Shown here in pieces: positions 1 to 19,762 of a DNA stretch of 44,896 nucleotides. Under the pieces are notes generated by a model. That model did not search any database. It had not been told where the DNA came from and saw only the letters and a program-made list of their open reading frames with translations. The position numbers were made by a program, and so were the translations under genes. Source of the stretch: Myxococcaceae bacterium (GTDB taxonomy: Bacteria > Myxococcota_A > Polyangia > Polyangiales > Ga0077539). How positions within the stretch are numbered: the first letter of the stretch is position 1; each line of letters starts with the position of its first letter. Location of the stretch: assembly GCA_028287085.1 (NCBI GenBank), contig JAQBQI010000389.1, forward strand, positions 1 through 44,896. Reading direction: 5' to 3'.

Positions 1-67
1 CCCGAACGATCGCTTGGAGGCGTCGTCGCTGGGCTGCGGTCACCCGAATCGTGCCCTCGTTGCTCAC
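1..67 (-). CDS. partial ORF at the window edge: either a further translationally coupled downstream gene or an out-of-frame continuation of the methyltransferase
   Basis: GTG at 67..65 overlaps the methyltransferase TGA (66..64) as GTGA, the same coupling seen at 21123 and 41106. The ORF is open to base 1 and reads VSNEGTIRVTAAQRRRLQAIVR with mostly G/C third positions. The same frame is already open from base 124 (ATRHKYFPTPWWIYGTLPG). Confidence 0.25.
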   Translation of the reverse strand, partial: MSNEGTIRVTAAQRRRLQAIVR

Positions 68-3000
68 GCCGGGGAGCGTGCCGTAGATCCACCAGGGGGT
101 GGGAAAATACTTATGACGGGTGGCTTAACAAGTGTCTCCGCGTCGAACGAGACGGCCACGTTATCGCGCGCCGTCACCACCCCCATGCTTCCCACTGGGA
201 ATATGTCGGATACCTTCCAACCTCTATCATACTCCGCTTCGTTGGCAGTCAGTGTCGGAACGAACAAATACGAAGGAGCTGCCGGCGCGAACCGGCGCAC
301 TGCAAGCGACGGTGCCCCACCCAGCGCGCAGTACTTTTCTTCGCGTGTACCCCAGAGCTCCGAGTATCCCACATCATGAGCGAGAGTGACGGTACGAGGC
401 GGGTCGACCACGCCAGCCGATCCGTCGTCCGTGCCTAGGTGGTCCTGCAGGACTTCCTCATCCGGTGGCTGGTCGTTGGCTGAATCGTCGGCAGGGCCCC
501 TCCGGGCGCCGAGAAAGATCGCCACCCCCTGCTTGATGTCGAAGACGTTCTGATCTTCAACCCCTTCAGGCACGACCGCACTTTTCGCGTTGCTTCCATG
601 TAAATTGACGCAACGAATATAGTCGAACGAAGACAGGAGACTGTACCGCATCCCGCGTAGCGTCTGATTATCCAAAAAACCATGATTGGCGACAAATCCG
701 AGAACGCCGACTCCCGCAGTCAGGACAGAAATTTCGGCGACTCGAAAGAACTTGACGTAGTCATCCTGAATAATCTTCTCAAACTGAAGCGCTCCTTTCT
801 CCTTGATCGGCACGCCGCCAACGGACCTGTACGGGTTCACGATTGCCCGAGACTCATCGTTCATGTTCTGCGAATGAAGAGAATAGGGTGGATTGCCCAG
901 AACCACGGTAAATCGCTGACTCTCTTTAATAGAATTAACGACCTGCGCCTCCGAAGCCAACGTACCGAGCAAATCCGCTCTCCCTTCGGAGACTTCAACA
1001 GACGATTCGAGCGAGTTCGTCAGAAGCACGTTCAGGCGATCATTTTCGCCAAGAACGTAACCGGTCTCCTTGAGCTTAGCCGCCAATCGCATATGCGCGA
1101 TGGCGTACGGTGCCACCATCAACTCGAAGCCGAACAACCTGGGAAGCAGGTGCCTACCGACGTATTCCCGCCAACCCCTCAACACGCGGATATCCTCCCA
1201 GTCATCGACGAGGAACTCGGCACACAACCGCCGCTTTACCGTCTCTTCGATGACGTCCACGCATGCGAAGAGGAACGTGCCAGTCCCAGCAGCTGGATCG
1301 AGTATGCGAACGAATTCATTTTCTCCCGCCGAACCAACGGATTCACTCGTCACTCGCACCCGCTCGCCTACGCCCTCCCCCTGCCAAGCCGTGACGTCGG
1401 CCAAACCGTCAGCAAGGAGAAAAGGGTGGGTCTGAAGTAGTTCGTGAGCCTGACGGACGATGTACTTAACCACCGCTTGTGGGGTGTAAAATACGCCTCG
1501 CTTGCTCTTGAGTTTTTTGTCAAACGCCGCCAGAAACGGCTCATAAAAATGGATGACCGGGTCAGGCACTTCGACCACACTCTCGCGGCCCGCCGTCAAC
1601 ACGTTTCCGTCGTGCGCCCTTCCAACCGCCGCCCCCGAGAAGACGACATCGATATCGACACGATTTAGCAGATCCGCCACGTCATCGAGCAGCCACACTT
1701 GCTTGTAATCGAAACCTGCATCGAGCACCTTGTCAAACAGCGCGCGCAAGAACGGGCTCGTCCTCGGGAAATGACCCCGGGCGTTGTTCCGAGTAAACCG
1801 CACGCCCGCGCGCAAAAATTCATCCTTGGAAATCCAGCGCGCTGCAAGCAGTCCATAGGTTAAAGTCTGCGCGTACGCATCGGCGAACTCTTTCGGCGTC
1901 TGACTATGAACCAGATGCTGCTTGAAACTCTCGTAAAGCGCCTTCAATTCACTGAGCTCTTCGACCTGTCGAAGCGCTAGCTGTTGAAGATATCGCGCTC
2001 GGTAGGCCAACTCTTCGGCGAGCTCCTTCGGATCGGCGATCTCGCTGCGACTTATCACGAAGAAGCGAGAGAGGAAGCTGATTACGCGACCTTCATTCTT
2101 GTAGTGCGCCCCGGACTTCGTGAGCTTGCCCTCCATCCGCTGCCGCCCTTGCCAGAGTTCGACCTGAACGCAGTCCGTCGCCGGATAGATGACGAGCACG
2201 TTGTGAAACCGGTTGTGGGATCCCAGGCGCTCCCGAAGATCGGCCGCTTCGGTCTCGTTGCCGAGACAGTATATGACGTACCCGAGTAACGATGTATCCT
2301 CGCGACGTACCGCAATGCCCGGGACCGCGACAGGCAACCCGGCTCGGTCGCCGATTTCAGACCGCGCGGGGCTCCCGATGTCGTGATCGATGGGAAGCTC
2401 AGTACACTGGATTTTCTGCCCCAACGAAGCGGTCTGGGGGTCGTATGTGCTGGCGATCTCGGACAGCAATTTGACGACGCGATCGTGGATCTCCTCTTTC
2501 TTCGGACTCGGCGCGAGACAGGCCTTCGCGACCTCCCTGAGTTTCTCGCGCTCCGGCTGCCTCGCGAACGCGTCTTTCCATGCTGACCCGTCAATCTTTT
2601 TGAACGCGCGCTCGTAAACCCGGCGCATGTACTCGCCGCTGCGGGGCACATCCCAATCGACGCATTCCTGTCGGATCACGAAGCTCTCCAGGGCTTCGTC
2701 GGGCTCCGCCGTCACGGTCGAGAAGTGCACGAGGTGGTTGTTGTTCCCGTTACCTTTGACGCGGGCATCCCGCACTGCGAAGACGCACAGAGTCTCCTGG
2801 ACGTGCTTTGCGCCGGGAACTTCCGGGGCCCTCGGTTTCGCGAAGCCCCGCAGCACTTCCTGGGCGAAGCGGTCGAGCGCATCCTCCACCAGGTTGAACT
2901 GGTACTCACTCGGGAAGAGCGACTTCGCGCCCTTGAGCAGTTCGCTGGACCCGACAGCGGCGAACTCCAAGAGGATCACGTGGGGCTGCCCTTCTCCCTT

Positions 3001-3291
3001 CGACTTGAAGTAGCGCACCGTACTCGGCAGGTGACTCAAGGCGACCCCGACCCCGAGGATCACCTGGCTCAACGGGATCTCCGTCGGCACGCCGAAACCC
3101 GAAGCCGCCATGAGGTCCTGCGCGAAGGTCGTTCCGACCCGCGTCGCCACCTTCTGCCGAGCGTCCGCCTTGACCTTCCCCTGAGCGAATCCCCTGGTCT
3201 TCGACGGAACCGCCGTCACATCCGCCGAAGCAGGCTCTATCGCGTCTGACTCGCCGCGTAGTCTTCGAACGAACTCGTCATATCCGATCAT
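64..3291 (-). CDS. large N6-adenine DNA methyltransferase, type ISP / YeeA / PglX-like architecture
   Basis: 1075-aa ORF. It has SAM motif I ILDPAAGTGTFL, catalytic motif IV VLGNPPYS, FYTPQAVVKYIV, and C-terminal blocks GVLGFVANHGFL and GVVTARD typical of large gamma-class enzymes. About 430 aa at the N-terminus are of unknown function. The ATG at 3291..3289 overlaps the SNF2 stop (ATGA). G+C is clearly lower than in neighbouring genes. Confidence 0.9.
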   Translation of the reverse strand: MIGYDEFVRRLRGESDAIEPASADVTAVPSKTRGFAQGKVKADARQKVATRVGTTFAQDLMAASGFGVPTEIPLSQVILGVGVALSHLPSTVRYFKSKGEGQPHVILLEFAAVGSSELLKGAKSLFPSEYQFNLVEDALDRFAQEVLRGFAKPRAPEVPGAKHVQETLCVFAVRDARVKGNGNNNHLVHFSTVTAEPDEALESFVIRQECVDWDVPRSGEYMRRVYERAFKKIDGSAWKDAFARQPEREKLREVAKACLAPSPKKEEIHDRVVKLLSEIASTYDPQTASLGQKIQCTELPIDHDIGSPARSEIGDRAGLPVAVPGIAVRREDTSLLGYVIYCLGNETEAADLRERLGSHNRFHNVLVIYPATDCVQVELWQGRQRMEGKLTKSGAHYKNEGRVISFLSRFFVISRSEIADPKELAEELAYRARYLQQLALRQVEELSELKALYESFKQHLVHSQTPKEFADAYAQTLTYGLLAARWISKDEFLRAGVRFTRNNARGHFPRTSPFLRALFDKVLDAGFDYKQVWLLDDVADLLNRVDIDVVFSGAAVGRAHDGNVLTAGRESVVEVPDPVIHFYEPFLAAFDKKLKSKRGVFYTPQAVVKYIVRQAHELLQTHPFLLADGLADVTAWQGEGVGERVRVTSESVGSAGENEFVRILDPAAGTGTFLFACVDVIEETVKRRLCAEFLVDDWEDIRVLRGWREYVGRHLLPRLFGFELMVAPYAIAHMRLAAKLKETGYVLGENDRLNVLLTNSLESSVEVSEGRADLLGTLASEAQVVNSIKESQRFTVVLGNPPYSLHSQNMNDESRAIVNPYRSVGGVPIKEKGALQFEKIIQDDYVKFFRVAEISVLTAGVGVLGFVANHGFLDNQTLRGMRYSLLSSFDYIRCVNLHGSNAKSAVVPEGVEDQNVFDIKQGVAIFLGARRGPADDSANDQPPDEEVLQDHLGTDDGSAGVVDPPRTVTLAHDVGYSELWGTREEKYCALGGAPSLAVRRFAPAAPSYLFVPTLTANEAEYDRGWKVSDIFPVGSMGVVTARDNVAVSFDAETLVKPPVISIFPPPGGSTARSPA

Positions 3292-6200
3292 GCGTCCCCC
3301 ATTCCCATCACGTCCATCATCCGTGTCACCGCCCCCACCTGCACGATGAACACTTGGCTCATCTCGATCTGCACGCGCTCTTCTTGCGACGCAAAGTACC
3401 CCGGCGCGAGCGCGGGCACCCCCTGGAAAACCTCCGCACCCACCGCCTCATCTTCGCGGTTCCTCTCGCGGAGATGAGTCTTCGGGTCCATGACCACGGC
3501 GGCGGCGGCCAAGAGGTGTTCGGGCCGCAGCGTCTGCGTCGCCTGCGGCTCCGCTGTAGGGTCGGGCCACGACTCGCCGGCGTGCTCCATCGACAGGGGC
3601 AGCCAACGCGACGCCTCGGCGTGGAAAGGCTGATACGACCAAAGCCAGCACGGCACCCCGCGCACGACCGACGGTCGCAAGAACCGCGTGTAGGGCTTCG
3701 GGTCCGTCCACGGCAGGTGCAGCAACGCGCGGCCGATTACCGGCGCCACATCGTCCGCGCGCTCGTCGCGAATCCACGCGTTGAGCTCGTCGCTCCAAAC
3801 CGGGTCGACGCCTCGCGCGGCCAGAGCCCTTTCGACCCGTCGATACATTGCCCCCAGCCGCTCGATGGCACGGTCCCTCTGGAACGTATTGAGGCTGGTG
3901 ACCCCGTTGTAGCGATACCCATGCATCCAGTCCGCCTCAGCGCCGGTGCCGCGTTCGAGCCCGAGGGTGAAATCGATCGCCAGGGTCTTGGTTGCAAGGC
4001 GCTCTCGCAGCGCGAGCTCGGCCTCCAATTCATCGGGCAGGATCATGTTGGCGATGACCGGGGCTTCGCCGGGCCGGTCGCGCCAGCCGTACCGCGGCGT
4101 GACGAGTCCCTCCCTCTGCGCGATCACGTGCAGCAACGGGAAGGCCACCGCCGTTTCGATGCGGGGGTCGAGCCGCCGGTCAACGCGGCCCGCCCGCTGG
4201 ATCATGCGCACGGGGTTCCAGTGGACGTCGAAGTTCACGAGGACGGAGACGTCCTGAAGGTTGACGCCCTCAGCGAGCACGTCGGAGCTGAACAGCACGT
4301 CCACGGGGCGGCGCATGGCGTCGAGCCAGTCGGATTCCCAGACCACGCCGAGGTCCCCGGGGGGAGGAAAGGGACGCAGGCGGTAGAAGGGCGCGAAGCG
4401 ATCGACCACCCGGTTGCGGTCGTCGGTCTCGCCGGTGACGGTAGCGGTGGTGGCGAGGAGGGTGTCGAAGGCATCGGGTGCGACGCCCTCGATGCCGAGG
4501 TCGATGAGCAGCTCGCGTCGCCGCGCGGGGTCGAGGGCGCGGCAGGCGTCGAGCACCGAGCGCACGTACGCGATGGTGTCGGTGAACTGCGAGAATACCA
4601 GCACCTTGCGCCCCTCCCGGCGGGCCTGGAAGAGCCGTCGGAAGAGCGCCAGGAGCTTCGGGTCGGTGGCCATGCGTCCGGCCCAGGCGGCACTTTCGGG
4701 CCAGCGGCGGCTGGCGCCGCTGAACCCCCCAGGCCAGTCATCGACGTCGAAACGCCCGAACACCACGTCCGCGAGTTGGGGCACCACGCGCAGGAGGATC
4801 GCGAGGTCAGCCAGCAGCAGGTCGCGCAATCCCAGTAACCGCCGGACCTTCGCGAGTTCGCCGTCAGCCGTGGGCGGCGGTGCGTCGAAGAACCCCAGCT
4901 GGATGGGCTCGTCCTCCCCCTCGTCCTCGTCGGGCCGCGCCCCCGCGAGCCGCGCGAGAAACTGCGACGACGGGTTCTCGGGACGGTCGCCCGCGGTGAG
5001 CCAGCGGATCGTGCGGAGCTGCTTCGGCGCCGACGCCTTCAGGATGATCTCGGACGCCACGGAGATGCGCCTCGCCTCGTCGTGTAGCCCGGCGGCGCTG
5101 CATCGCGCGATGAGCTGCTCGACGCGCGCGGCATGGAGCACCGTGAGCCGCAGCACCGTGATGAGGAAGGAGACCGGCGAGCTCTCCAGGCGCTTGAGGG
5201 CGAGCACCCGCTGGAGGCCGACCGCCGGGGACGCGTCCTCCGCGGTGTGCGTGGCGTCCTCGACGTCGCGCCACATGTAGACGCGGAAACTAAGCGCCGA
5301 CGCGCTGCCCTCGTCGAAGAGCGGGAGGAACTGCGCGAGCACGTTGCTCGTGTCGGCGTAGCGGAGACGCTCGGGTTCCCCGGCATCGGGGCGGAAGAGC
5401 AGGTCGACGGACGATCCCTCCTGCCGCTCGATCTCCTTGCAGAGCGCGCGGGAGCGTTGCACCACCACGCGATCGAGGAGTTCCTCGGCAATGCGCGGGC
5501 GGGGCCCGTCGTCGCGGACGCCCGTGGCGGCGGCGCTGCGCACGCGGGTACGAAGTTCGTGGAGCTTCGTCTCCTGCTCCTTGAGGTATTTTGAAAGGTT
5601 GTAGGTGCCGATGGGCAGGTCGCTGCGAAACGAGAACGATGGCCGCACGCGCCCGTCGCGCCCGTGGAGGATCTCCTCGATGGCGTCTCGCTGCCGGTTG
5701 GCGTGGTCGCGCGCGCGCTGGCACCGTTGCTGGAGCTCGGCGAGCGCGGCCCTCTCCCACGCCGCGTCGCCCTTCTGCGTGAGCCCCGCGAAGGTGTACG
5801 GCTCGGCGAAGAGGAGCGAGCACTCCTGTTCCAGGTCTTCGAGGCTGTTGTTGATGGGCGTGGCCGTGAGCAGCAGCACACGGCGGAAGCGTCCCCGCTT
5901 CATCCGAAGCCGGAGGAGGTCACGCAGCACGAGGGTGCGGCGGGCCGAAGCGGTGCGGAAGTTGTGCGCCTCGTCGACCACGACGAGGTCGGAGAGCACG
6001 AGGTGTTCGAGGTCGGAGAGCCCGTCGCCCCGGGGAACGAGCACGGCGCTCCCGGCCGTGACGCGCGAGAGCTTCGCGTGGGAGATCACCCTCACCCGTG
6101 AGGTCTCGACCCCGTGCGCCGCGAGCGGTGGAATGGCCTCGCGCTCCCAGGTCTCGACGACCGAGCCTGGCGCGAGCACCGTCACGCGGAGGGCGTCGGC

Positions 6201-7589
6201 GTGGCCCCCGGCACGCCACCGGGCGGCATCGTGGACGATCACAGTGGTCGCGACGTAGGTCTTTCCGAGGCCGACGCCGTCGCAGAGCATCGAGCCCCGC
6301 AAGGTGTCGAGCTGCGCGACCACACGCTGCGCGGCCTGTCGCTGGTACGCTGCCTTCTGGTAGCGGACGGCCTCCTCGGCGAGCGTCTCGGCGCCACCGA
6401 GGCGGTCGCGCATGAGGCGATGGAGGCCGAGCAGGGCCTTGTCCCGCGGCGTGCATTCGTCGAGGGAGCGCGGCCGCTCTGGCTCGAACCAGCGTGCGAA
6501 GGCCTCGCGCACGTCGCGGTCCCAGCGGCGCTCGGGGTGCGGCGCGGAGAGGGTCGCGGCGGTGTCCCAGAGGGCGAAGGTATCGCCTGCGCGCACGTGA
6601 CCGAGGGCGACATGGCCTAGCGCGTGAAGGATCGCGGTGATGCGCAGGGCAGGAGCGAGGGAAGGCGCCAGGGCGATGGTGACGCCTTGCGCGTCGGCAA
6701 GGGTCACGAGCGCGAGGTCGGCAGGCGCGGCGCAGCGGAAGCGTGGGGAGAGCGTTGGGCTGAGGTGACGGACGCTGAGTGGTGGGAGCCCGAGGGGCCC
6801 TGTCGCGAGGAACTCCGAGAGCGCGACGGTTTCGAGCGCCGGGTCTCCCGCGGCGGCGGTAAGGGCGACGCGCAGAGCGGCCGGAAGCTCGATGGGTGCA
6901 GCAGACTCGGGGGGGAACGCGGGAGAGGTCGTCTCGTCGGGCGCGGCGCTCTCGTACGGACGGGTCGTGCGCGCGAGAGCGATGAGGTCGGTGGCGTGCC
7001 AGTCGCGGGTGTGCGTGCCATCGGGGGAAGTCCAGCGAGCGTGAGTACAGAGGCCGCTGGAGAGGGAGCGCTCGACGAGGCTGAGCAGTGACCACGGGTG
7101 AAGCCGCCGCCCGACCATCGCGAATGGGACCACCCCGATTTGTGCGCGGCGTGAAGCCACGAGATCGAGCCAGAGCACAAGGGCGTGGGCTGGCAGGGGT
7201 GCGTCGAGGCCGACCGGGATCACCGAGTCGGGCGAAAGATCCAGCGTGACGGTGCGCGGCGCGCCTGCGGAATCGGACAGCGACACCGACCACCGGAACG
7301 GCAGCGCCGCACCAGAGAGATTGTCGGCGGCGATCTGCGACAAGTCCCGGGGTGGCGCGTCGATCAGCTCGTGCGAGGGGACAGTCAGCGGAGCGTTGTT
7401 GCCCTGAAGGACGCGAACGGTCGAGGAGCCCGTCGAGAGCAGCGCAGCGAGGTCGGCGGCGAAGGCACGCGGATCGGCGGCCTCAGAGAGCGTGAAGAGC
7501 ACACGATGGCCACCAGCGAGGACGGTCGAAGGACCATCTCCCGGCGCCGCTCCGGAACGCTCTACAGATTCGGTCGGGCTGATCTCCAT
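3288..7589 (-). CDS. SNF2-family helicase with a ~450-aa uncharacterised N-terminal extension
   Basis: Motif I LCDGVGLGKTY, motif II VVVDEAHNFR (DEAH), motif III LLLTATPINN. The C-terminal lobe has KVLVFSQFTDT, DVLAEGVNLQ and WNPVRMIQRAGRVDR. The start is uncertain: the ORF opens with TTG at 7664, and the first ATG (MEISPTE) at 7589 has AGG 4 nt upstream. Confidence 0.88.
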   Translation of the reverse strand: MEISPTESVERSGAAPGDGPSTVLAGGHRVLFTLSEAADPRAFAADLAALLSTGSSTVRVLQGNNAPLTVPSHELIDAPPRDLSQIAADNLSGAALPFRWSVSLSDSAGAPRTVTLDLSPDSVIPVGLDAPLPAHALVLWLDLVASRRAQIGVVPFAMVGRRLHPWSLLSLVERSLSSGLCTHARWTSPDGTHTRDWHATDLIALARTTRPYESAAPDETTSPAFPPESAAPIELPAALRVALTAAAGDPALETVALSEFLATGPLGLPPLSVRHLSPTLSPRFRCAAPADLALVTLADAQGVTIALAPSLAPALRITAILHALGHVALGHVRAGDTFALWDTAATLSAPHPERRWDRDVREAFARWFEPERPRSLDECTPRDKALLGLHRLMRDRLGGAETLAEEAVRYQKAAYQRQAAQRVVAQLDTLRGSMLCDGVGLGKTYVATTVIVHDAARWRAGGHADALRVTVLAPGSVVETWEREAIPPLAAHGVETSRVRVISHAKLSRVTAGSAVLVPRGDGLSDLEHLVLSDLVVVDEAHNFRTASARRTLVLRDLLRLRMKRGRFRRVLLLTATPINNSLEDLEQECSLLFAEPYTFAGLTQKGDAAWERAALAELQQRCQRARDHANRQRDAIEEILHGRDGRVRPSFSFRSDLPIGTYNLSKYLKEQETKLHELRTRVRSAAATGVRDDGPRPRIAEELLDRVVVQRSRALCKEIERQEGSSVDLLFRPDAGEPERLRYADTSNVLAQFLPLFDEGSASALSFRVYMWRDVEDATHTAEDASPAVGLQRVLALKRLESSPVSFLITVLRLTVLHAARVEQLIARCSAAGLHDEARRISVASEIILKASAPKQLRTIRWLTAGDRPENPSSQFLARLAGARPDEDEGEDEPIQLGFFDAPPPTADGELAKVRRLLGLRDLLLADLAILLRVVPQLADVVFGRFDVDDWPGGFSGASRRWPESAAWAGRMATDPKLLALFRRLFQARREGRKVLVFSQFTDTIAYVRSVLDACRALDPARRRELLIDLGIEGVAPDAFDTLLATTATVTGETDDRNRVVDRFAPFYRLRPFPPPGDLGVVWESDWLDAMRRPVDVLFSSDVLAEGVNLQDVSVLVNFDVHWNPVRMIQRAGRVDRRLDPRIETAVAFPLLHVIAQREGLVTPRYGWRDRPGEAPVIANMILPDELEAELALRERLATKTLAIDFTLGLERGTGAEADWMHGYRYNGVTSLNTFQRDRAIERLGAMYRRVERALAARGVDPVWSDELNAWIRDERADDVAPVIGRALLHLPWTDPKPYTRFLRPSVVRGVPCWLWSYQPFHAEASRWLPLSMEHAGESWPDPTAEPQATQTLRPEHLLAAAAVVMDPKTHLRERNREDEAVGAEVFQGVPALAPGYFASQEERVQIEMSQVFIVQVGAVTRMMDVMGMGDA

Positions 7590-7730
7590 GCACCTGGTGG
7601 CTCCGCGAGAGACATCGACCGGTCGAGGCGGGCGGATCGTTGCTGACGGCACCAGCAGGGTCAAGGCATTCCGCCAGCGACCAGACCTCGGCGACGGCGG
7701 CCCGCCATCCGCCTCGAACGATCTACTCGC

Positions 7731-8933
7731 TCAGCTTGTGGCGGTCCGTGGCACCAGCAGCACCAGTTCATCGGAAGCGGACGCGTCCGCCAGTCGCTCC
7801 CATTGTGCCGGAGGAAGAGCGTACTGCTCGCAGACCGTGTACTCCTCGCGCAATGTTGCGAGCATCTCCATGACCTCGGTCGTCCGTCGTGCGGCCTCCG
7901 CGCGCTCCACCCAGGCGTCGATCTCGGTCCGGAGGCTTCGCAACAACGCCAGCGTCTCAGGGGTGCCGGCGGCGACGGTTGCCGACCACTCCTCCCGGAG
8001 CTTCCTCATCGGATCGACCGACTCGGGCTCGAGCAGCCGCGCGATGGACGCCAGCGCGGGCTCCCCCACTCGCGCCACCAGGGGCCGCGCCGCCAGGATC
8101 GACGGACGCCGATCACAGAGTTGCCCGACGATCTCGGTCGCTGGGAGTCGCAGTTGCGCGAGCCCCGACTCCAAGCGGCGCCGAGCCAGGGCCGTCTCGC
8201 CCGCGGCGCGCAGCGTGCGAGCTTCCAACACCAGCGCCAGCGCCGAAACGTCGAGGTACGCGATCGAGGCGACGAAGCGCGGATCAGTAGGGGATAGACG
8301 GGCGACATCGTTCCGCTGCAGCATCGCGACGCAGTAGTTGCGGACCTGCTGGGCTCTGTCGGCGTGCCCGATGAACCACGCCGGCGAGGGCAGCTCGCGC
8401 CGCGCGTCGACCTCGGAAAGCTGTTCGAAGGAGGAGGCAAGCGGCGCGAACTGTGCGAGGTCGATCTGCGCCGACACGCGATCGAGCTTGTCCTCGACCC
8501 GGGCCAGGTCCGAGTGGACCCGGGCAGTAAGGAGGCGCAGGGCCACCATCTGCGCGCCGATGTCGTCGAGACGACCGTTCACCTGATCGAAGCCATCCTT
8601 CATGGCCCGATCCAGCAGACGGATGCCATCCTGCACCTGGTTGAGCTTCCGATTCAGCAGGGCGAAGCCGACCACGCTGACGCCGAGGTTGAGAATGGAA
8701 GCCGCAGCCCCCACCTGCATCAGCCCCGACGCAAACGACGAGACCACTCCGCCGAGCTCACTGCCTCCGTCCTTCACTCCACGAAGGAAGGCAACAAACC
8801 TCCCCGTCTTCGCGTTGCGAATGACTCCGCCATCTTGATAAAAATCTCCACGGGCGACGCCCTCCACGACCTCTCTCGCGCGCTCCAGCGGAAGCTTGAG
8901 GAAGGGATGCATGTCGATGACTGATCCATTCAT
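7731..8933 (-). CDS. hypothetical membrane-anchored helical protein (third gene of the dynamin block)
   Basis: 400-aa ORF with high GC3. GAAGGAAGG Shine-Dalgarno lies 8 nt upstream of the ATG at 8933. It has a hydrophobic segment GGVVSSFASGLMQVGAAASILNLGVSVVGFALL followed by long heptad-like helical sequence. I recognise no catalytic motif. Confidence 0.7.
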   Translation of the reverse strand: MNGSVIDMHPFLKLPLERAREVVEGVARGDFYQDGGVIRNAKTGRFVAFLRGVKDGGSELGGVVSSFASGLMQVGAAASILNLGVSVVGFALLNRKLNQVQDGIRLLDRAMKDGFDQVNGRLDDIGAQMVALRLLTARVHSDLARVEDKLDRVSAQIDLAQFAPLASSFEQLSEVDARRELPSPAWFIGHADRAQQVRNYCVAMLQRNDVARLSPTDPRFVASIAYLDVSALALVLEARTLRAAGETALARRRLESGLAQLRLPATEIVGQLCDRRPSILAARPLVARVGEPALASIARLLEPESVDPMRKLREEWSATVAAGTPETLALLRSLRTEIDAWVERAEAARRTTEVMEMLATLREEYTVCEQYALPPAQWERLADASASDELVLLVPRTATS

Positions 8934-8948
8934 GGTCTTCGCCTTCCT

Positions 8949-11576
8949 TCAATTCGATCTATTTGAACGTGATGCAGTGCCTGAGGCGCCTCTCGCCATC
9001 AGTGCAGACTCCCGCGCGACGGCCTCGATGAGCTTCGGCAGCCGGTCGACGACAGAGGCCAGGTCGCCCGCGCGAGCCTCAAGGTCTCCGAGGCGCCGGA
9101 GCTCGCGGTCGATCTTCCGCTGCTCTTCCGCCACGAGGCCTTCAATCCAGCGGTTGAAGACGACGAGCTGTCGATCGAGCAGCGACTCGAGCGCCGCGAC
9201 GGACTGTTGCAGGAGGTGGGCGCTGTCCTGTTCGATGTGCTGAACCGCCGCAGCCCGAAATGCGCGGACATCCTCAGCGGTCTTGGCGAACACCTTCTTC
9301 TTCAGGTCATCGAGGCTCGGCCCAAAAGCAAAGCCAATCAACCCGCCGACGAGGCCCCCGATGACGGAGCCTACGCCCGGAAAGATCAACGTCCCGATCG
9401 CAGCGCCAGCTCCCATGCCGGCCGCGCTGGCGAAGATGTTCTCGGAATCGTGCCCGGACAGCATCGACGCGAGACCGCCCGCGAGTTCGTCGCCGCCCGC
9501 CCCCAAGGTCAGCTCCAGTCCATCCAACCGAACATTCGCCTCGCCGGCGACCAGCCGGCTCACGACCCGATACCGCTCACGAATCTCGTTCGCGGCGGCG
9601 GTCGCCTCCCGCGTCAACTCTTGGTGGAGTTGATCGCGCTGGGTCTCCATCACCTTCTCCGTCAGGACCTTCAACCGCTTGAAGCGCCTGGGCATCTCCT
9701 CCTGCACGAATTTCTCGAGTTGCGTCTTGTCTGGCTGCGACGACAGTACTGCCTCGACCGAATCACACCACTCATCGACCTGCTGATTGAACGCCACCAC
9801 GCTCGCCTGCTGCACAGATTCGTAGGCCCCTCGCAGCGTCCTCCGATGCGCCGTCACCAGCCTCTTAACTTCCTTCTGCGGATCAGGGAGCCGGCTGTTG
9901 GTCAGGGTTCTGATTCGCTCGTTGTACGCCGCCTTGAGCTGCTCGACTGCTTCTCGGGATGACCTGACCACGGCGGTCGCGATCTGCGCGCAACGCACTG
10001 CCAGGACCGTAGTGCGCTCCGCCGCCAGCACCCGTAACAGGCGGGCCATCGACTCGTCGAACGCCCGAGCCCAGGACTGATCAAACGAGGGATCGTCCGC
10101 GATCGCCCGATCGGCCGACACATCGACAAGGAAGACCTCTTCGGACCTTCGGCCTACCACCTTCGCGAACTGCTGCCGCGCAACTGTGATCGCTTCTGCG
10201 CACTGCTCCCGGGCCTCGTCCTCGTCCTCCGTGATGAGCAGCGCGTTCTTGTGCGCGGCATCAACCTGGGTCACAACCAGCGCGACATGGGGAATATACT
10301 CGGTGAGTCGCGCGACGATCTTCTGCGTCTCCTGCGACATCACCTGCCGCATCGGCGTCAGCAGAACACACGCATCCGCATCATGCTCGATCGCCTTCCA
10401 GGCGCGCTCCTGGAACACCTTGTTCGGAGTATTCACCCCGGGCGTGTCCATGAGCACGAGCCCTCCCTTCAGGCGCTGCGCCGGAAACTGGATGTGAACC
10501 TCGCTAACCGTTGCCCCCCGACCGTGCAGGTCACCGAGGTCGCGCACATGCCGTCGAAACTGTCGGTCCCGGTCGTCACGATGCCTCTGGAGCGCAGCGC
10601 TCAACTCGGGGATCGCCCGCCTCGAATCCGCGAGCCGACGCTCGGCGAGGGCAACGCTGTCCACCGCCGCACGAACAGCGCGGGCAGCGGCATCGGCGGC
10701 CTGAGTTGCGTCGGCGGTCGCACGCTGCGATGACAGGTGTCGGAGGTCGGCCTGGTGGCGCAGGCCTCGACTGGCGTTGAGGGCAGCTCCACCGTGCTCG
10801 CGGTGCCCGACCGCGCGGCGCCACGCCTGTCGCTTCGTCCCCCAGAGCCAGCCGAGCAGCACCCGCGCCGTCCACCACCAGAATGCCCACCAGCGCGGCT
10901 CTTCTCGCAGCATCAACGGGACGGCCGACGCATGCTCCTGCTCCACGAGGGAAGCGCGCTGGAGAAACGCCCCCGCTTCAACGAGCTTGCGCTCTTCGGC
11001 GTCAAGCTGCGCCCTGTCGAGCTCCTCCGTCTGACATGCACCAACGACCTCGTTGCTCTTGCGATTTCCTTCCTTGATCGCCACATCTCGAGCACGTACT
11101 GCCGAGTCGAGGTCCGCCCGACGCAGACGCGCGAGGGCCTCGCCCGCGCGCAATCGCTCCACCAGTCCGGAGCGCTGATCTGGAACCTCATCGTTGAATC
11201 GTACACGGCGGCCACTCGATTCGAGATACCAGTAGTCGGCGTCGATTCCTTCGCGAAGGTAGGTGACCGAGCCGGTGAACTCCCCCGTCGCGGCCCCCAA
11301 CAGACGCGTTCCCAACATGGCGTTGAGGAACGTGCTCTTGCCCGCCTTGAACTCACCTACGATCGCAACGTACATTTCCTCGCGATCGAGCCGCCTACGC
11401 ATGTCCGCGGTGGCTTCCGCGAGCGCCGTACGAGCCTTCGCAGACAGCTCGGGGTGCTCGCGTACGAAGGCCTCGATGTCCCGCGCCGTTCGTTGCACGA
11501 GCGACTGGAGCTCGCCTGCGCTCCGGGCGGCGCGGAGGTCGTAGACGAGCGTCTGCTGGCGTTCAGTGCTCGGCAT
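8949..11576 (-). CDS. bacterial dynamin-like GTPase (BDLP), second of a tandem pair
   Basis: P-loop VGEFKAGKSTFLNAMLG, G3 LMDTPGVN, G4-like VVTQVDAA. There is a Gly-rich hydrophobic paddle FASAAGMGAGAAIGTLIFPGVGSVIGGLVGGLIGFAFGP near the C-terminus. The start overlaps the upstream gene by 14 nt. Confidence 0.85.
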   Translation of the reverse strand: MPSTERQQTLVYDLRAARSAGELQSLVQRTARDIEAFVREHPELSAKARTALAEATADMRRRLDREEMYVAIVGEFKAGKSTFLNAMLGTRLLGAATGEFTGSVTYLREGIDADYWYLESSGRRVRFNDEVPDQRSGLVERLRAGEALARLRRADLDSAVRARDVAIKEGNRKSNEVVGACQTEELDRAQLDAEERKLVEAGAFLQRASLVEQEHASAVPLMLREEPRWWAFWWWTARVLLGWLWGTKRQAWRRAVGHREHGGAALNASRGLRHQADLRHLSSQRATADATQAADAAARAVRAAVDSVALAERRLADSRRAIPELSAALQRHRDDRDRQFRRHVRDLGDLHGRGATVSEVHIQFPAQRLKGGLVLMDTPGVNTPNKVFQERAWKAIEHDADACVLLTPMRQVMSQETQKIVARLTEYIPHVALVVTQVDAAHKNALLITEDEDEAREQCAEAITVARQQFAKVVGRRSEEVFLVDVSADRAIADDPSFDQSWARAFDESMARLLRVLAAERTTVLAVRCAQIATAVVRSSREAVEQLKAAYNERIRTLTNSRLPDPQKEVKRLVTAHRRTLRGAYESVQQASVVAFNQQVDEWCDSVEAVLSSQPDKTQLEKFVQEEMPRRFKRLKVLTEKVMETQRDQLHQELTREATAAANEIRERYRVVSRLVAGEANVRLDGLELTLGAGGDELAGGLASMLSGHDSENIFASAAGMGAGAAIGTLIFPGVGSVIGGLVGGLIGFAFGPSLDDLKKKVFAKTAEDVRAFRAAAVQHIEQDSAHLLQQSVAALESLLDRQLVVFNRWIEGLVAEEQRKIDRELRRLGDLEARAGDLASVVDRLPKLIEAVARESALMARGASGTASRSNRSN

Positions 11577-13530
11577 ATGAGCGCGCCGCGCGCAGCCCCT
11601 CCTGGACGGCCGCGGCCCGATGGCGGAATCTGTCGAGTTCGCGCACCCGACGATCGACGCTTTCCTGGCCGCGCTGTAGCTCCGCGAGGCTGCTCTCGAC
11701 CTGCCCCCGCAGCTCGTCGAGCATCATCGTGAGCGCATCATCGATCTTTCCCTTGAGGACAACGATCTGCTTTAGCGCCTCTTCGGCGATCACCCCGCCG
11801 TCTGTACTGGCCGTCGCGGCGAGCCCCTCATGGAACTTCGTCGCGAGCTTCTCCTTGACGTCGTCCCTCATGCTCCCTGACTGAACGGCGGTGCCGGCGA
11901 GACCGGAGACGATGCTCGCGATGATGAGCGCGACAGGGTTGAGACCGAGCGCGACAAGCCCGAAGAGCGCGACGAGGTGCAGTCCGAGGCCCTTGAGCAT
12001 CCCTTTGAAGCCGACCGCGCCTCCCATGACGGCGCCGCCGACGCCTCCGAGCACGAGCCCGCCGACGCCCGCGAGCACTCGCTCGAGCGTGCTGACATCG
12101 TCGCCGTCGACCATGGAACTTGGCCCCATCGTGATCGCAGCCCGAATGGACTCGACCTCGCGGACGTACTTGGCTACCCCCTCGGCGAGATCGTCGCCGA
12201 GCGCCTCGAGCTCTCCCTGCAGCATTGGTTGCAAGACCGTCTCTGCCCACCGCTTCTGCTCGGTGCCGAGGGCGCCTCGAAGTGCGACCTCGATGCGCTT
12301 CGTCACACCGGATCGATCAGTCACGAGTTCGTGCCATCCGATCTCGACGCCCTTCACGGCCTCGCGCAGCTTCGGAAGTAGTCCGCTGACGAAGGTCACA
12401 TAGCTGTTCGAGATCCGCTCGTGCAGGCGATCTCTGGTGTGACCGATGCGACGCAGGACGCCCGCACGTTGCCTCTCGAGCTCCTTGAACCTTGGCTGCT
12501 GTGAGTCGTACCGCTGCTGGAGGTCGGTCAGCGATGCGCGAAGGAGGACCTCGCGCTGCTGGAGCAGCGGACCGAACTCCTTGATGGCGTGCTCGGCGGC
12601 CCCGAGGGGGCTCCGGAGCTTCAGGGCTCCGCGCTCGGACGCAAGAAAGCCCTCAAGCCCGCGTTCGAAGGTGGGGAGACCCGATTCGAGCAGCTTCTGC
12701 TGATCTTGTGCCTTGCGCGCCAGCAGCCCGTTGAGAGCAGACACGTAGAAGACCCGGGTGGCCCCTCCGATGTAGGGCTCGAGATACTGCCTGGACCTGG
12801 CACGAAGGTCGGCGTCATCGTCTTCGCTTCCCTGGACCGCATCGTACTCGTTCCAGATCGCGAAGATGCTCGTCGCGTCCTTCGCGTATCTGCCCAGGAC
12901 CTCTTGGATGAATTCCTTCTCCGACTGGCTGAGCTGTTGCTTGCAACTCAGCACGAGCACCATCGCGTCGGCCTGGTCGAGGAACGACCGGGTCACCTCG
13001 GTCCGGGTGTCGTCTTCGTTCAGTCCTGGCGAGTCCACGATGGAAACGCCCTGACGGCACAGGTCGATCGGTGCCAAGACGTCCATCCGCTCGAACTCGC
13101 TCCGTCGGATGCGGTCCGGCTCGCCATCGACTCGACCGATGGCGATGTACTTCTTGATATCGTTGGTTTCGATCTCAAGCGGGGCTCTCTTCTGGTCGGT
13201 GTAGAACAGCGTCGCCCTTTCGCGCTCTGCATAGGTGACCTTCGTGATCACCGCGGTGCAGGGCGCAATCTTCGCTGGAAGAATTGAGCGTCCGAGCATG
13301 GCGTTGATCAGCGTGCTCTTCCCGCGCTTGAACTCACCGACGACCATGAGGTTGAATGAATCGGAGAGCAGATGATCCGCCATGGACCTCAGTCGTGCTG
13401 AACGTGTCGCCGTTTCCGACGCACCGCCATCTCCGACCTCCTCCCACAGCGCGGCGACGTCCCGCAACGACTTGGCCAGACTCTCGGCGACTGTCTTGTA
13501 GTCCCCATACGATCGCTCAGATTGCGCCAT
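11563..13530 (-). CDS. bacterial dynamin-like GTPase (BDLP), first of a tandem pair
   Basis: P-loop VGEFKRGKSTLINAMLG, G3 IVDSPGLNE, G4-like WNEYD, and a Gly-rich paddle LAGVGGLVLGGVGGAVMGGAVGF...LIIASIVSGLAGTAV. I prefer the start at 13530 (MAQSERS) because GGAGG lies 6 nt upstream. The ORF also opens at an ATG at 13551. Confidence 0.85.
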   Translation of the reverse strand: MAQSERSYGDYKTVAESLAKSLRDVAALWEEVGDGGASETATRSARLRSMADHLLSDSFNLMVVGEFKRGKSTLINAMLGRSILPAKIAPCTAVITKVTYAERERATLFYTDQKRAPLEIETNDIKKYIAIGRVDGEPDRIRRSEFERMDVLAPIDLCRQGVSIVDSPGLNEDDTRTEVTRSFLDQADAMVLVLSCKQQLSQSEKEFIQEVLGRYAKDATSIFAIWNEYDAVQGSEDDDADLRARSRQYLEPYIGGATRVFYVSALNGLLARKAQDQQKLLESGLPTFERGLEGFLASERGALKLRSPLGAAEHAIKEFGPLLQQREVLLRASLTDLQQRYDSQQPRFKELERQRAGVLRRIGHTRDRLHERISNSYVTFVSGLLPKLREAVKGVEIGWHELVTDRSGVTKRIEVALRGALGTEQKRWAETVLQPMLQGELEALGDDLAEGVAKYVREVESIRAAITMGPSSMVDGDDVSTLERVLAGVGGLVLGGVGGAVMGGAVGFKGMLKGLGLHLVALFGLVALGLNPVALIIASIVSGLAGTAVQSGSMRDDVKEKLATKFHEGLAATASTDGGVIAEEALKQIVVLKGKIDDALTMMLDELRGQVESSLAELQRGQESVDRRVRELDRFRHRAAAVQEGLRAARSYAEH

Positions 13531-13662
13531 CCTCACCCTCCGTTCACCCATCGGTTACCACAGTCCGCCTTTCTCGGACAGAGGCTTCCACGGGATCGAT
13601 TGCCCGGTCGGCCTTGCTAGTCTTCAAGGCGGGCGTGGCCGTTGATGCTGACGCTGGAACCT

Positions 13663-13708
13663 AGCGGGTGCGGTTTGCCAACCAGCGGGTGCGGACGACA
13701 CGCCCGCT
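13663..13708. promoter_or_regulatory. operator-like repeats in the divergent intergenic region
   Basis: AGCGGGTGCGG occurs at 13663..13673 and again at 13684..13694 (21-bp spacing, two helical turns). An inverted partial copy GCCCGCT lies at 13702..13708. The repeats sit between the minus-strand dynamin block and the plus-strand operon. Confidence 0.3.
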
Positions 13709-14075
13709 GCCATCTTGTTGCTTGTCGGCAGTGGTGCTGCCCCTCCGTCGGTCAGCGTCACGCTGCTGCGAGCCACCAAGCCCGCTCCGCTCCCCATCGA
13801 CGTCTTCGAGCCTCTCCGAGGCCTGCGCCTCGAAGCGATACCGTTCGGTCGCTCGCGGTGTCCCTTGCCCGCCGGGAGCACTTCAGCTGGGTGATGGGCT
13901 GGAGTACCTTGGCGATCTCGGCACCAATCTTTCGGCCTCTTCGCCGTATGATGCGACCGAGCCCGCGACCAATCGTTGGGACTGCTGTCAGATTGTTCGC
14001 TAGGGGAGCGTCGAGCGGATGCTTTGTCCAAGAACGCCGGTGGTGGGGCGCAGGCCCGCGAAGGATGCTCGTCGC

Positions 14076-16491: not shown

Positions 16492-16499
16492 CGGAAGGG

Positions 16500-17407: not shown

Positions 17408-17411
<4 letters not shown>
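16500..17411 (+). CDS. NAD-dependent epimerase/dehydratase (SDR family)
   Basis: Rossmann motif ILITGSCGLVGRAL and catalytic YARSK (YxxxK). The ATG at 16500 is preceded by GGAAGGG. The supplied ORF's upstream extension from 16305 is Arg/Pro-rich and unlikely to be coding. Confidence 0.9.

Positions 17412-19758
<2,347 letters not shown>

Positions 19759-19762
<4 letters not shown>

What the first reader, a model, noticed from the sequence alone, without database searches (positions are those of the whole stretch)
64..13530. Dynamin-like GTPase pair, membrane protein, SNF2 helicase and N6-adenine methyltransferase in one co-directional block: candidate undescribed defence-type system
Seen: five minus-strand genes have operon-like junctions. 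BDLP1/BDLP2 overlap by 14 nt at 11563-11576. A 15-nt gap with a GAAGGAAGG Shine-Dalgarno precedes 8933. There are 66-141 nt before the SNF2 gene, and an ATGA overlap at 3288-3291. The block follows a 0.5-kb divergent intergenic region. Both GTPases have a P-loop (GEFKRGKST / GEFKAGKST), DxPG (DSPG / DTPG) and Gly-rich hydrophobic paddles. The helicase has a full SNF2 motif set, and the methyltransferase has motif I and NPPY.
Established: tandem bacterial dynamin-like proteins remodel membranes. B. subtilis DynA limits phage spread, and LeoA/LeoBC dynamins form the Eleos defence system. SNF2 plus N6-MTase pairs occur in DISARM class 1 and are fused in type ISP enzymes.
Inference: no named system explains this gene set. 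There is no DrmA/DrmB/DrmC, no PglZ/BrxC, and no nuclease domain I can recognise. It may be one system with a membrane arm and a DNA arm, or two adjacent systems in a defence island. The block may also continue past base 1.
Basis: partly seen in the sequence, partly recalled or inferred. Interest (0 to 1): 0.8.

Follow-up and report, generated by a model that had tools for sequence, protein, structure and literature searches.

The report
Two adjacent defence modules, not one
The five co-directional genes are two separate mobile anti-phage modules lying side by side: a dynamin-pair module whose third gene is a distant relative of the pore-forming "jumbo-phage killer" protein JukB, and the cut-off front end of a helicase-methylase-McrBC restriction cassette.

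Summary
In detail: the five minus-strand genes, their junctions and their motifs are as described. The reading as one five-gene system is not supported.

- **SNF2-methyltransferase side.** Orthologues of the SNF2 gene (45-60% identity) were found in 11 loci, each followed by the same large methyltransferase. Where DNA continues (6/6), McrB and McrC follow, and a conserved ~900-aa protein in five. None has a dynamin or 400-aa gene nearby.
- **Dynamin side.** The 400-aa protein is rare and sits in the order BDLP1-BDLP2-400aa wherever upstream DNA is present. Its downstream neighbours differ in each lineage. A 96%-identical copy is followed by SIR2/CARF genes, and synteny breaks about 18 nt after the 400-aa stop codon (window ~7712).
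- **State of the window copy.** The methyltransferase (type ISP/IIL-like) lacks about 345 aa of its specificity domain and ends at the contig edge. McrBC, if present, lies beyond base 1.
- **New finding.** The N-terminal ~120 aa of the 400-aa protein are remotely homologous to JukB. Its nearest superfamily relatives are linked to dynamin-like GTPases across diverse taxa.

Verdict: a defence island with two modules. The dynamin + JukB-like trio is an undescribed variant of a known kind. The SNF2 cassette has been noted in the literature but is unnamed.

The parts
11563..13530 (-). BDLP1: bacterial dynamin-like GTPase (655 aa from ATG 13530; the ORF extends to ATG 13551). First gene of the dynamin trio.
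   Evidence: Pfam Dynamin_N 6e-28 and Dynamin-like_hel_bact 3e-18. Best PDB match is Nostoc BDLP 2J68, E 1.7e-36. P-loop at aa 72, DSPG at aa 173, Gly-rich paddle. Orthologues are the first gene of the trio in L088, L089-92, L095 and L138-140.
8949..11576 (-). BDLP2: second dynamin-like GTPase (875 aa). A ~290-aa insert between G1 and G3 carries a conserved Trp-rich hydrophobic helix.
   Evidence: Pfam Dynamin_N in two stretches. Motifs. The insert is conserved in P0278, P0279 and P0281. Only 5 clusters were found among 5.8 billion sequences. The 14-nt overlap with BDLP1 is conserved in L088 and L089.
7731..8933 (-). 400-aa protein. It has an N-terminal small beta domain plus a hydrophobic helix (JukB-like module, aa ~15-130) and a C-terminal all-helical domain. 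Third gene of the trio.
   Evidence: PADLOC JukB E 3.6e-6. 85 of 101 superfamily members hit JukB, best 6.4e-20. The top PDB hit of the superfamily profile is JukB 9JHT, E 7.6e-5, aligned over profile positions 14-133. The AF2 model has pLDDT 80.8. It follows BDLP1-BDLP2 in every locus that holds upstream DNA.
7665..7730 (.). Boundary between the two modules. Synteny with the 96%-identical trio of L087 ends at about window 7712, roughly 18 nt after the 400-aa stop codon.
   Evidence: DNA alignment. No terminator-like or promoter-like site found. RNA folding is unremarkable, z -0.54.
3288..7589 (-). SNF2-family ATPase (1433 aa; an alternative TTG start lies at 7664). It has a conserved His-rich N-terminal domain. 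First gene of the SNF2-MTase-McrBC cassette.
   Evidence: Pfam SNF2-rel_dom and Helicase_C. 243 homologues, 45-60% identical among those listed. Invariant residues listed. In 11 loci it is followed directly by the MTase.
64..3291 (-). Type ISP/IIL-like N6-adenine MTase-TRD protein, truncated. Homology ends at aa ~1057 and about 345 aa of the Type_ISP_C specificity domain are missing.
   Evidence: PADLOC REase_MTase_IIG 2.6e-123. The family profile hits DrdV 7LO5 at 2e-63 and LlaGI/LlaBIII at ~1e-49. Alignments to L082 and L003. Full-length relatives carry Type_ISP_C.
1..120 (.). Terminal sequence of unknown origin at the contig end. It replaces the rest of the MTase gene and supplies the stop codon at 64-66.
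   Evidence: No similarity to MTase relatives in any frame. No repeat elsewhere in the window. No plasmid match.
13531..14018 (.). 488-nt divergent intergenic region upstream of the trio; presumed promoter region.
   Evidence: Sequence and ORF list. The sigma-70 consensus scan found nothing here, which is uninformative for a ~70% GC organism.

Best explanation
Window 1-13551 is the edge of a horizontally acquired, lower-GC defence island holding two independent modules that abut at about 7712.

Module A (7731-13551) is a three-gene membrane-acting unit. It has two dynamin-like GTPases of the Nostoc-BDLP/mitofusin class, both with membrane paddles, translationally coupled to a 400-aa protein. 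The N-terminal ~120 residues of that protein are homologous to the membrane-inserting end of JukB, the pore-forming effector of the Juk anti-jumbo-phage system.

Inferred mechanism for module A: the GTPase pair binds and remodels membrane in a GTP-dependent way, and recruits, positions or activates the JukB-like protein on a target membrane. That membrane could be the cell membrane at an infection site or a phage-made vesicle. The outcome would be either to permeabilise it or to seal it. No step of this mechanism is shown here.

Module B (64-7664) is the first two genes of a conserved cassette: SNF2 ATPase, type ISP-like m6A methyltransferase with a specificity domain, McrB, McrC, and usually a ~900-aa protein.

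Inferred mechanism for module B: it works as a modification-dependent restriction system. The MTase marks host sites, and the SNF2 motor and the McrBC GTPase-nuclease act on unmarked DNA.

In this contig the MTase has lost the last ~345 aa of its specificity domain and the McrBC genes are not visible. This copy is therefore either disrupted or simply cut by the assembly.
For: Independence of the modules:
- SNF2 orthologues lie in 11 loci (L002-6, L008, L082-86). Each is followed by the MTase and none has a BDLP or 400-aa hit.
- McrB and McrC follow in 6 of 6 loci with downstream DNA. The ~900-aa protein follows in 5.
- The ATGA overlap between SNF2 and MTase is conserved.
- 400-aa homologues form 8 clusters only. 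Every fetched locus that holds upstream DNA shows the order BDLP1-BDLP2-400aa, and the cluster members differ in their flanks: ThsA-like SIR2 + CARF in L087; a 243-aa protein + a PycC-like protein in L089; PDC-S14 in L095; unknown genes in L088; MFS/FAD genes in L138.
- The synteny break with L087 lies 18 nt after the stop codon.

JukB link. JukB forms tetrameric pores on the phage early-infection vesicle (PMC13282480, PMC13434031).

Dynamin link of the JukB-like clade:
- Of the 18 metagenome loci closest to the 400-aa protein, 14 of the 15 with usable flank carry a dynamin-like gene next door.
- A Nostoc plasmid record annotates 'dynamin family protein' two genes upstream.

Defence role of dynamin pairs: the Eleos two-gene system protects B. 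subtilis against jumbo phages only, and needs both P-loops (bioRxiv 10.1101/2022.05.11.491447).

MTase class: the family profile hits DrdV and the type ISP enzymes LlaGI/LlaBIII.

McrBC branches associated with SNF2/PglX-like cassettes are mentioned in PMC11090510.
Against: - No experiment bears on either module.
- The five genes are co-directional with only a 66-141-nt gap and no detectable terminator, so read-through co-transcription is possible.
- One MAG (OH_CBlB_99) carries both modules, though on different contigs.
- More remote JukB-like genes are often embedded in, or next to, other MTase + SNF2 systems of the Hma type. A looser functional tie between 'JukB-like' and 'DNA restriction' modules is therefore not excluded.
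- The JukB similarity covers only the N-terminal third of the protein. Foldseek did not recover a JukB structure with either model.
- Sample sizes are small: 9 informative SNF2 loci and 5 independent trio lineages.
Confidence: 0.8

Rival explanations
1. One integrated five-gene (or larger) system. The dynamin/JukB-like arm breaches or marks a phage-protective membrane compartment, so that the SNF2-MTase(-McrBC) arm can reach and restrict the phage DNA.
For: - The genes are co-directional and tightly spaced, with no terminator-like site at 7665-7730.
- In the Juk model, JukB pores expose phage DNA to host nucleases, and JukA is reported next to RM enzymes and nucleases (PMC13434031).
- Remote JukB-like genes sit inside Hma-like operons, in the order DUF499 - JukB-like - DUF1156 MTase - SNF2/PLD.
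- A dynamin/JukB-like trio lies beside a DUF499/DUF1156 system on a Nostoc plasmid.
- MAG OH_CBlB_99 has both modules.
Against: - 0 of 9 informative SNF2-orthologue loci have the trio upstream, and 0 of 5 other trio lineages have SNF2-MTase downstream.
- A 96%-identical trio is followed by unrelated SIR2/CARF genes, with the breakpoint right after the 400-aa stop codon.
- In the MAG that has both modules, they are not adjacent.
- The SNF2 cassette is complete and self-contained elsewhere, with its own McrC nuclease.
Confidence: 0.1
2. The BDLP trio is a housekeeping or envelope-stress membrane-repair unit, like B. subtilis DynA or mycobacterial IniA/IniC. It is not a dedicated defence system, and merely happens to lie next to a restriction cassette.
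For: - BDLP1 is most similar to Nostoc BDLP, Cj-DLP and IniA. It is not similar to LeoA, which gave no PDB hit.
- NCBIfam LeoA-family scores are 15-21 bits against a cut-off of 325.
- One trio lineage (L138-140) sits among MFS, FAD-binding and amidohydrolase genes.
Against: - Distribution is extremely sparse: 5-8 clusters in a 5.8-billion-sequence collection.
- The block has lower GC than its host.
- Flanks vary even between close relatives.
- Neighbours are defence genes in the window, L087, L089 and L095.
- The third gene is related to a known anti-phage effector.
Confidence: 0.1

Closest known systems
Eleos (LeoA/LeoBC) two-gene dynamin defence system (Millman et al. 2022)
   Same: Two consecutive, overlapping dynamin-like GTPase genes with intact P-loops, located in a defence island. 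PADLOC LeoBC/LeoA models align over almost their full length (70-82 bits).
   Different: - Sequence similarity is only at the level of the superfamily. NCBIfam LeoA-family scores are far below cut-off, and the LeoA structure is not among the PDB hits.
- A conserved third gene is present (the JukB-like 400-aa protein).
- BDLP2 has a ~290-aa insert with a hydrophobic helix inside the GTPase domain.
Juk (JukA sensor + JukB pore-forming effector) anti-jumbo-phage system
   Same: The N-terminal ~120 aa of the 400-aa protein (small beta domain + hydrophobic helix) are homologous to JukB. As with JukB, it is encoded directly after a partner gene that could recruit it.
   Different: - No JukA/YaaW match was seen among the six proteins scanned against PADLOC. 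The partners here are two dynamin-like GTPases.
- The C-terminal 270 aa are a different helical domain.
- No fold-level match to JukB was recovered.
Paired bacterial dynamin-like proteins (Nostoc BDLP, Campylobacter DLP1/DLP2, mycobacterial IniA/IniC)
   Same: These are the best sequence matches in the PDB (2J68 at 1.7e-36; 5OWV; 6J72). They share the tandem-operon arrangement and the membrane paddle.
   Different: Those pairs have no JukB-like third gene and are not described as island-borne. Their described roles are membrane tethering/fusion or drug tolerance.
McrBC-associated SNF2 + PglX-like methyltransferase cassettes ('DISARM-like' and methyltransferase-associated McrBC branches; Bell et al. 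2024, PMC11090510). Related: DISARM class 1 and ARMADA.
   Same: An SNF2 (BrxHII/RapA-like) ATPase gene overlaps a large N6-adenine MTase gene. In relatives these are followed by McrB and McrC.
   Different: - No YprA/DrmA-like helicase, DrmB or DrmC is present. Some relatives instead carry an N-terminal BrxHI/Lhr-like helicase fusion.
- NCBIfam DrmD scores 76 bits against a cut-off of 610.
- The window copy lacks the MTase C-terminus, and McrBC are not visible.
Type ISP (LlaGI, LlaBIII) and type IIL (DrdV) restriction-modification enzymes
   Same: The MTase + Type_ISP_C specificity module of the family is homologous to them (E 1e-49 to 2e-63).
   Different: The motor is a separate SNF2 protein and the nuclease is a separate McrBC pair, rather than an Mrr nuclease and helicase fused in one polypeptide. 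The N-terminal ~550 aa of the MTase protein have no solved relative.

Membership tests
Eleos (LeoA/LeoBC) | Two adjacent dynamin-like GTPase genes in one operon | tested here: met
   14-nt overlap; Dynamin_N in both; P-loops intact.
Eleos (LeoA/LeoBC) | Proteins score as LeoA / LeoBC family members | tested here: inconclusive
   PADLOC LeoBC 82 and 74 bits, LeoA 71 bits, with near full-length alignment. NCBIfam LeoA/HP0731 family scores 15-21 bits against a cut-off of 325. No hit to the LeoA structure in the PDB.
Eleos (LeoA/LeoBC) | Protects against phage in a GTPase-dependent manner | not testable with these tools
   Needs cloning and phage challenge.
Juk (JukA/JukB) | JukB-family effector | tested here: inconclusive
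   The window protein hits the JukB model at E 3.6e-6 over 30 aa. 85 of 101 superfamily members hit JukB. The superfamily profile's top PDB hit is JukB 9JHT at E 7.6e-5, over the N-terminal ~120 aa only. Foldseek did not recover JukB.
Juk (JukA/JukB) | Adjacent JukA (YaaW) sensor gene | tested here: not met
   None of the five block proteins, nor the divergent 712-aa protein, matched a JukA model at the E-value limits used in the PADLOC scans (0.01, 1e-5). The rest of the window was not scanned against PADLOC.
DISARM class 1 | DrmD-type SNF2 helicase | tested here: not met
   NCBIfam DISARM_DrmD scores 76 bits against a cut-off of 610. Only the generic helicase motifs match.
DISARM class 1 | DrmA (YprA-like helicase), DrmB (DUF1998), DrmC (PLD) | tested here: not met
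   None of these Pfam domains is recorded or found for the block proteins or for the called genes of the orthologous cassettes L082-L085.
ARMADA (types I/II) | YprA-like helicase together with a BrxHII-like SNF2 and a PglX-like MTase | tested here: not met
   No YprA-like gene in the block. Orthologous cassettes carry McrBC instead. The fused helicase in P0028 matches BrxHI/SngC (Lhr-like), not a YprA model.
McrBC-associated SNF2-MTase cassette (unnamed; PMC11090510) | Orthologous SNF2 and MTase genes with overlapping stop and start | tested here: met
   45-60% identity for SNF2 and 33-43% for the MTase across 11 loci. The ATGA overlap is conserved.
McrBC-associated SNF2-MTase cassette (unnamed; PMC11090510) | McrB and McrC genes directly downstream | not testable with these tools
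   The contig ends 63 nt after the MTase stop codon. Both genes are present in 6 of 6 relatives with downstream DNA.
McrBC-associated SNF2-MTase cassette (unnamed; PMC11090510) | Full-length MTase with Type_ISP_C specificity domain | tested here: not met
   Homology ends at aa ~1057. About 345 aa are missing relative to L003, L082 and L083.
Type ISP restriction-modification | Nuclease, helicase, MTase and TRD in a single polypeptide | tested here: not met
   The MTase-TRD is homologous to LlaGI/LlaBIII, but the ATPase is a separate SNF2 protein and no Mrr domain was detected.
Hma (HmaA/B/C) | HmaA helicase, HmaB DUF1156 methylase and HmaC DUF499 ATPase | tested here: not met
   Only a 64-bit generic helicase hit to HmaA, and no HmaB or HmaC hit. 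Genuine Hma proteins in L125 score 204-330 bits.
BREX | PglZ, BrxC and a PglX methyltransferase | tested here: not met
   PglX models hit only at E ~0.009. No PglZ or BrxC in the block.

The most novel reading that the evidence does not exclude
The dynamin pair plus the JukB-like protein is a distinct, so far undescribed type of membrane-acting anti-phage system. In it, GTP-driven dynamin-like proteins take the place of the JukA sensor and deploy a JukB-like membrane-inserting effector, possibly against the membrane vesicles of jumbo phages. That would link Eleos and Juk mechanistically. A weaker extension is that its repeated placement beside DNA-restriction cassettes (SNF2-MTase-McrBC here, Hma elsewhere) reflects cooperation, with the membrane module exposing shielded phage DNA.
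Probability: 0.3. Interest if true: 0.7.

Novelty: new variant of a known kind. Interest (0 to 1): 0.5.

Why it matters
How the Eleos dynamin pair stops phage is unknown, and how widely JukB-type pore formers are used outside Juk is also unknown. A conserved operon that couples two dynamin-like GTPases to a JukB-like protein, with a second architecture (single dynamin + ~290-aa protein + JukB-like) seen in many taxa, gives a concrete and testable hypothesis: bacterial dynamins in defence work with a membrane-inserting effector. Eleos and Juk are both reported to act on jumbo phages, so the link is suggestive.

The SNF2-MTase-McrBC cassette is a widespread, uncharacterised restriction-type system. 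It would repay study from an intact copy rather than this truncated one.

The result also illustrates that operon-like spacing inside defence islands does not show that genes form one system.

Tried and rejected
- **Fold search of the 400-aa protein.** Two AF2 models were searched against the PDB (pLDDT 57.7 with 9 sequences, 80.8 with 101 sequences). Nothing reached E <= 0.001; the best hits were an SSU-processome chain at 0.085 and NlpI at 0.027. JukB was not recovered. The JukB link therefore rests on sequence profiles only.
- **Boundary signals at 7665-7730.** The promoter/terminator consensus scan of 1-14500 found nothing there, and RNA folding was unremarkable at z -0.54. These are uninformative rather than evidence of co-transcription in a ~70% GC organism.
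- **Terminal 120-150 nt of the window.** No repeat within the window, no match to any fetched locus in any frame, and no plasmid hit. An IS end could not be shown.
- **Profile search of the SNF2 family against the PDB.** Only generic RapA/eIF4A helicase hits appeared, and nothing for the N- or C-terminal domains.
- **Genome-contig scan.** The rest are distant SNF2 proteins.
- **Exact look-up of the window MTase.** Nothing found.
- **Hma, DISARM, ARMADA, BREX, MADS and Zorya/ZorD.** Considered and rejected, because the SNF2 and MTase hits to them were generic, sub-threshold scores only.
- **The divergent 712-aa ORF.** No family hit, and no homologue near any other trio.

Full report
**1. What is in the sequence**

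The window is a complete 44,896-bp contig.
- BDLP1 and BDLP2 overlap by 14 nt.
- A 15-nt gap with GAAGGAAGG precedes the 400-aa gene.
- A gap of 66 nt (TTG 7664) or 141 nt (ATG 7589, the database gene model) precedes the SNF2 gene.
- SNF2 and the methyltransferase share an ATGA overlap.

Upstream lies a 488-nt divergent intergenic region. The motifs are present: P-loops GEFKRGKST and GEFKAGKST, DSPG and DTPG, Gly-rich paddles, DPAAGTGTF and NPPY. Pfam confirms the domain calls. The block has 57-66% GC against ~70-72% for the rest of the contig, which encodes glycan-biosynthesis and other chromosomal genes. So this is an acquired island at a contig end.

**2. The SNF2-methyltransferase pair is the front of a larger conserved cassette**

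The SNF2 protein has 243 homologues at E <= 1e-10. The 120 listed are mostly 1400-1560 aa and 39-60% identical to it, and those with source names come from Myxococcota, Acidobacteriota, Proteobacteria and others. Motifs are strongly conserved, including an N-terminal His-rich motif.

In 11 loci with a true orthologue (L002-6, L008, L082-86), the next gene is always the orthologous large methyltransferase, and the stop/start overlap is preserved. Wherever DNA continues (6 of 6 loci), McrB (AAA_5 + McrB_lid) and McrC follow. In five of these a conserved ~900-aa protein without any family match follows as well.

The full-length methyltransferases are 1362-1393 aa and end in a Type_ISP_C specificity domain. 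The family profile matches the type IIL enzyme DrdV (2e-63) and the type ISP enzymes LlaGI and LlaBIII (~1e-49) over the MTase-TRD part. PADLOC's REBASE-derived models call them 'type IIG'.

The window protein aligns with these relatives only to residue ~1057 (window ~120). It then runs into unrelated sequence and stops at base 64, so about 345 aa of the specificity domain are missing. The last 120 nt match nothing I could find.

The literature mentions McrBC branches associated with a 'DISARM-like' cassette and with methyltransferases, using the domain labels SWI2/SNF2 and PglX. It defers them to a later paper (PMC11090510). ARMADA and DISARM class 1 share the SNF2 + PglX-like pair but are defined by a YprA-like helicase (PMC12458937). 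That helicase is absent here. Some orthologues instead carry an N-terminal BrxHI/Lhr-like helicase fusion.

**3. The dynamin trio is a separate, conserved unit**

The 400-aa protein has only 8 homologous clusters in a collection of 5.8 billion clusters, and BDLP2 has only 5. Every fetched locus that holds upstream DNA shows the same order, BDLP1-BDLP2-400aa, with the same tight junctions. The flanks differ in each:
- L087: ThsA-like SIR2 and a CARF protein.
- L089: a 243-aa protein and a PycC-like protein.
- L095: PDC-S14/DUF4357.
- L088: genes of unknown function.
- L138-140: MFS and FAD-binding genes.

None of these loci has an SNF2 or MTase hit.

The decisive case is L087. Its 400-aa protein is 96% identical to the window's. 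The two DNAs are near-identical through the stop codon and for ~18 nt beyond, then become unrelated.

A more distant BDLP pair (28% identity, L141-143) lacks the third gene.

One MAG (OH_CBlB_99) has both modules, but on different contigs and with other neighbours.

**4. What the 400-aa protein is**

A profile of its family finds 342 representatives at E <= 0.001, mostly 370-420 aa, with the N-terminal ~100 residues best conserved.
- 85 of 101 of these match PADLOC's JukB model, best 6.4e-20. The window protein itself scores 3.6e-6.
- The top PDB hit of the superfamily profile is JukB (9JHT, E 7.6e-5), aligned over profile positions 14-133.
- With the deep alignment, AF2 gives a confident model (pLDDT 80.8). 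It shows a small N-terminal beta domain, a poorly defined hydrophobic segment at aa 55-122, and a well-packed all-helical C-terminal domain.
- Foldseek finds no significant PDB match and does not recover JukB.

I therefore claim only a JukB-like N-terminal module. JukB is reported to form tetrameric pores that permeabilise the early-infection vesicle of phiKZ-like jumbo phages after recruitment by JukA (PMC13282480, PMC13434031). Some superfamily members fuse this module to class-3 lipase or LRAT domains, which fits a membrane-directed role.

**5. Dynamin and JukB-like genes go together more widely**

A metagenome scan returned 40 loci with remote relatives.
- Among the 18 closest to the window protein, 14 of the 15 with usable flank have a dynamin-like gene adjacent. 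Usually the order is a ~810-aa Dynamin_N protein, then a ~290-aa protein, then the JukB-like gene. In two loci the JukB-like gene precedes dynamin-like gene(s): a BDLP pair in L099, and one contig-truncated BDLP1-like gene in L102. These loci span 37-70% GC.
- An annotated Nostoc conjugative plasmid shows the same arrangement.
- The more remote relatives instead sit inside Hma-like operons, in the order DUF499/HmaC - JukB-like - DUF1156/HmaB - SNF2-PLD/HmaA.

**6. Mechanism**

Shown:
- Two GTPases with intact catalytic motifs and membrane paddles.
- A conserved, translationally coupled third gene with a JukB-like membrane module.
- Island location and defence neighbours.

Inferred: the BDLP pair remodels or tethers membrane under GTP control, and recruits or activates the JukB-like protein at a target membrane. 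The Eleos dynamin pair protects only against jumbo phages and needs both P-loops (10.1101/2022.05.11.491447), and JukB acts on a jumbo-phage vesicle. An anti-jumbo-phage, vesicle-directed role is therefore a reasonable but untested guess.

For the SNF2 cassette, the inferred mode is methylation of host sites by the ISP-like MTase, with attack on unmarked DNA by the SNF2 motor and McrBC. In this contig that module is incomplete.

**7. Comparison and verdict**

The BDLPs resemble Nostoc BDLP, Cj-DLP and IniA more than LeoA. They fail the NCBIfam LeoA family cut-off, while giving moderate PADLOC Leo hits. Eleos membership is therefore inconclusive, although 'works like Eleos' is plausible. Juk membership fails for lack of JukA. 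DISARM, ARMADA, Hma, BREX and type ISP memberships fail on defining components.

The single-system reading is not supported. The two-systems-in-an-island reading is supported. The trio is a new variant of a known kind, and the SNF2 pair is a truncated member of a noted but unnamed cassette.

Interest is moderate (0.5). It comes mainly from the dynamin-JukB-like link.

Noticed in passing
window 10500-11300 (BDLP2 aa ~100-360): BDLP2 carries a ~290-aa insert between the P-loop and DTPG. The insert holds coiled-coil sequence and a Trp-rich hydrophobic helix (PRWWAFWWWTARVLLGWLWG). It is conserved in the homologues P0278, P0279 and P0281, and suggests a second membrane-contact element inside the GTPase domain.
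   Followed up: partly
window ~6560-6630 (SNF2 aa 322-342 of the 1433-aa form): The N-terminal domain of the SNF2 family has invariant H322, H326, H331, D336 and D342 (HAxxHxALGH...D), which looks like a metal-binding site. There is no Pfam or PDB match. Some orthologues (e.g. P0028, 2221 aa) add an N-terminal BrxHI/Lhr-like helicase.
   Followed up: partly
window 64-3291 versus 3288-7589: The MTase gene has much lower GC3 (0.70) than the SNF2 gene (0.86). Its closest relative (L003, 41-43% identity) is not the partner of the closest SNF2 relative (L082: SNF2 60% identical, MTase 37%). This suggests the methyltransferase was exchanged between cassettes.
   Followed up: partly
window 1-120: The last ~120 nt of the contig are unrelated to the MTase family and to anything else searched, and they supply the premature stop codon. 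An IS end, a deletion scar or an assembly chimera could not be told apart.
   Followed up: yes
L002 and L140 (MAG OH_CBlB_99, JAEYZO01): The same metagenome-assembled genome carries an SNF2-MTase cassette (56% identical SNF2) and a BDLP-BDLP-400aa trio. They lie on different contigs and are not adjacent.
   Followed up: partly
L116-L127; L137 (Nostoc plasmid NZ_CP040300, locus 3511-14468): Remote JukB-like genes are embedded in Hma-like operons between the DUF499 ATPase and the DUF1156 methylase, often with a ~150-aa gene. On the Nostoc plasmid a dynamin/282-aa/JukB-like trio sits directly upstream of a DUF499-DUF1156 system.
   Followed up: partly
P0175, P0180, P0264, P0187: The JukB-like module occurs fused to class-3 lipase (Lipase_3) or LRAT/NlpC-P60-type domains in 490-690-aa proteins.
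   Followed up: no
L083 21560-24277; L084, L006, L008, L082: A conserved ~900-aa protein with no Pfam or PADLOC match follows McrC in the SNF2-MTase-McrBC cassette. It is a fifth, uncharacterised component.
   Followed up: partly
window 14019-16157 (+): The divergently transcribed 712-aa ORF (GC3 0.83) has no Pfam or PADLOC family and no homologue in any fetched locus.
   Followed up: partly
window 16305-25500 (+): A glycan-modification cluster: an NAD-dependent epimerase, a GT4 glycosyltransferase apparently fused to a radical SAM/SPASM domain (this may be an ORF-calling merge), a class II aldolase, a carbamoyltransferase and two more radical SAM proteins.
   Followed up: no
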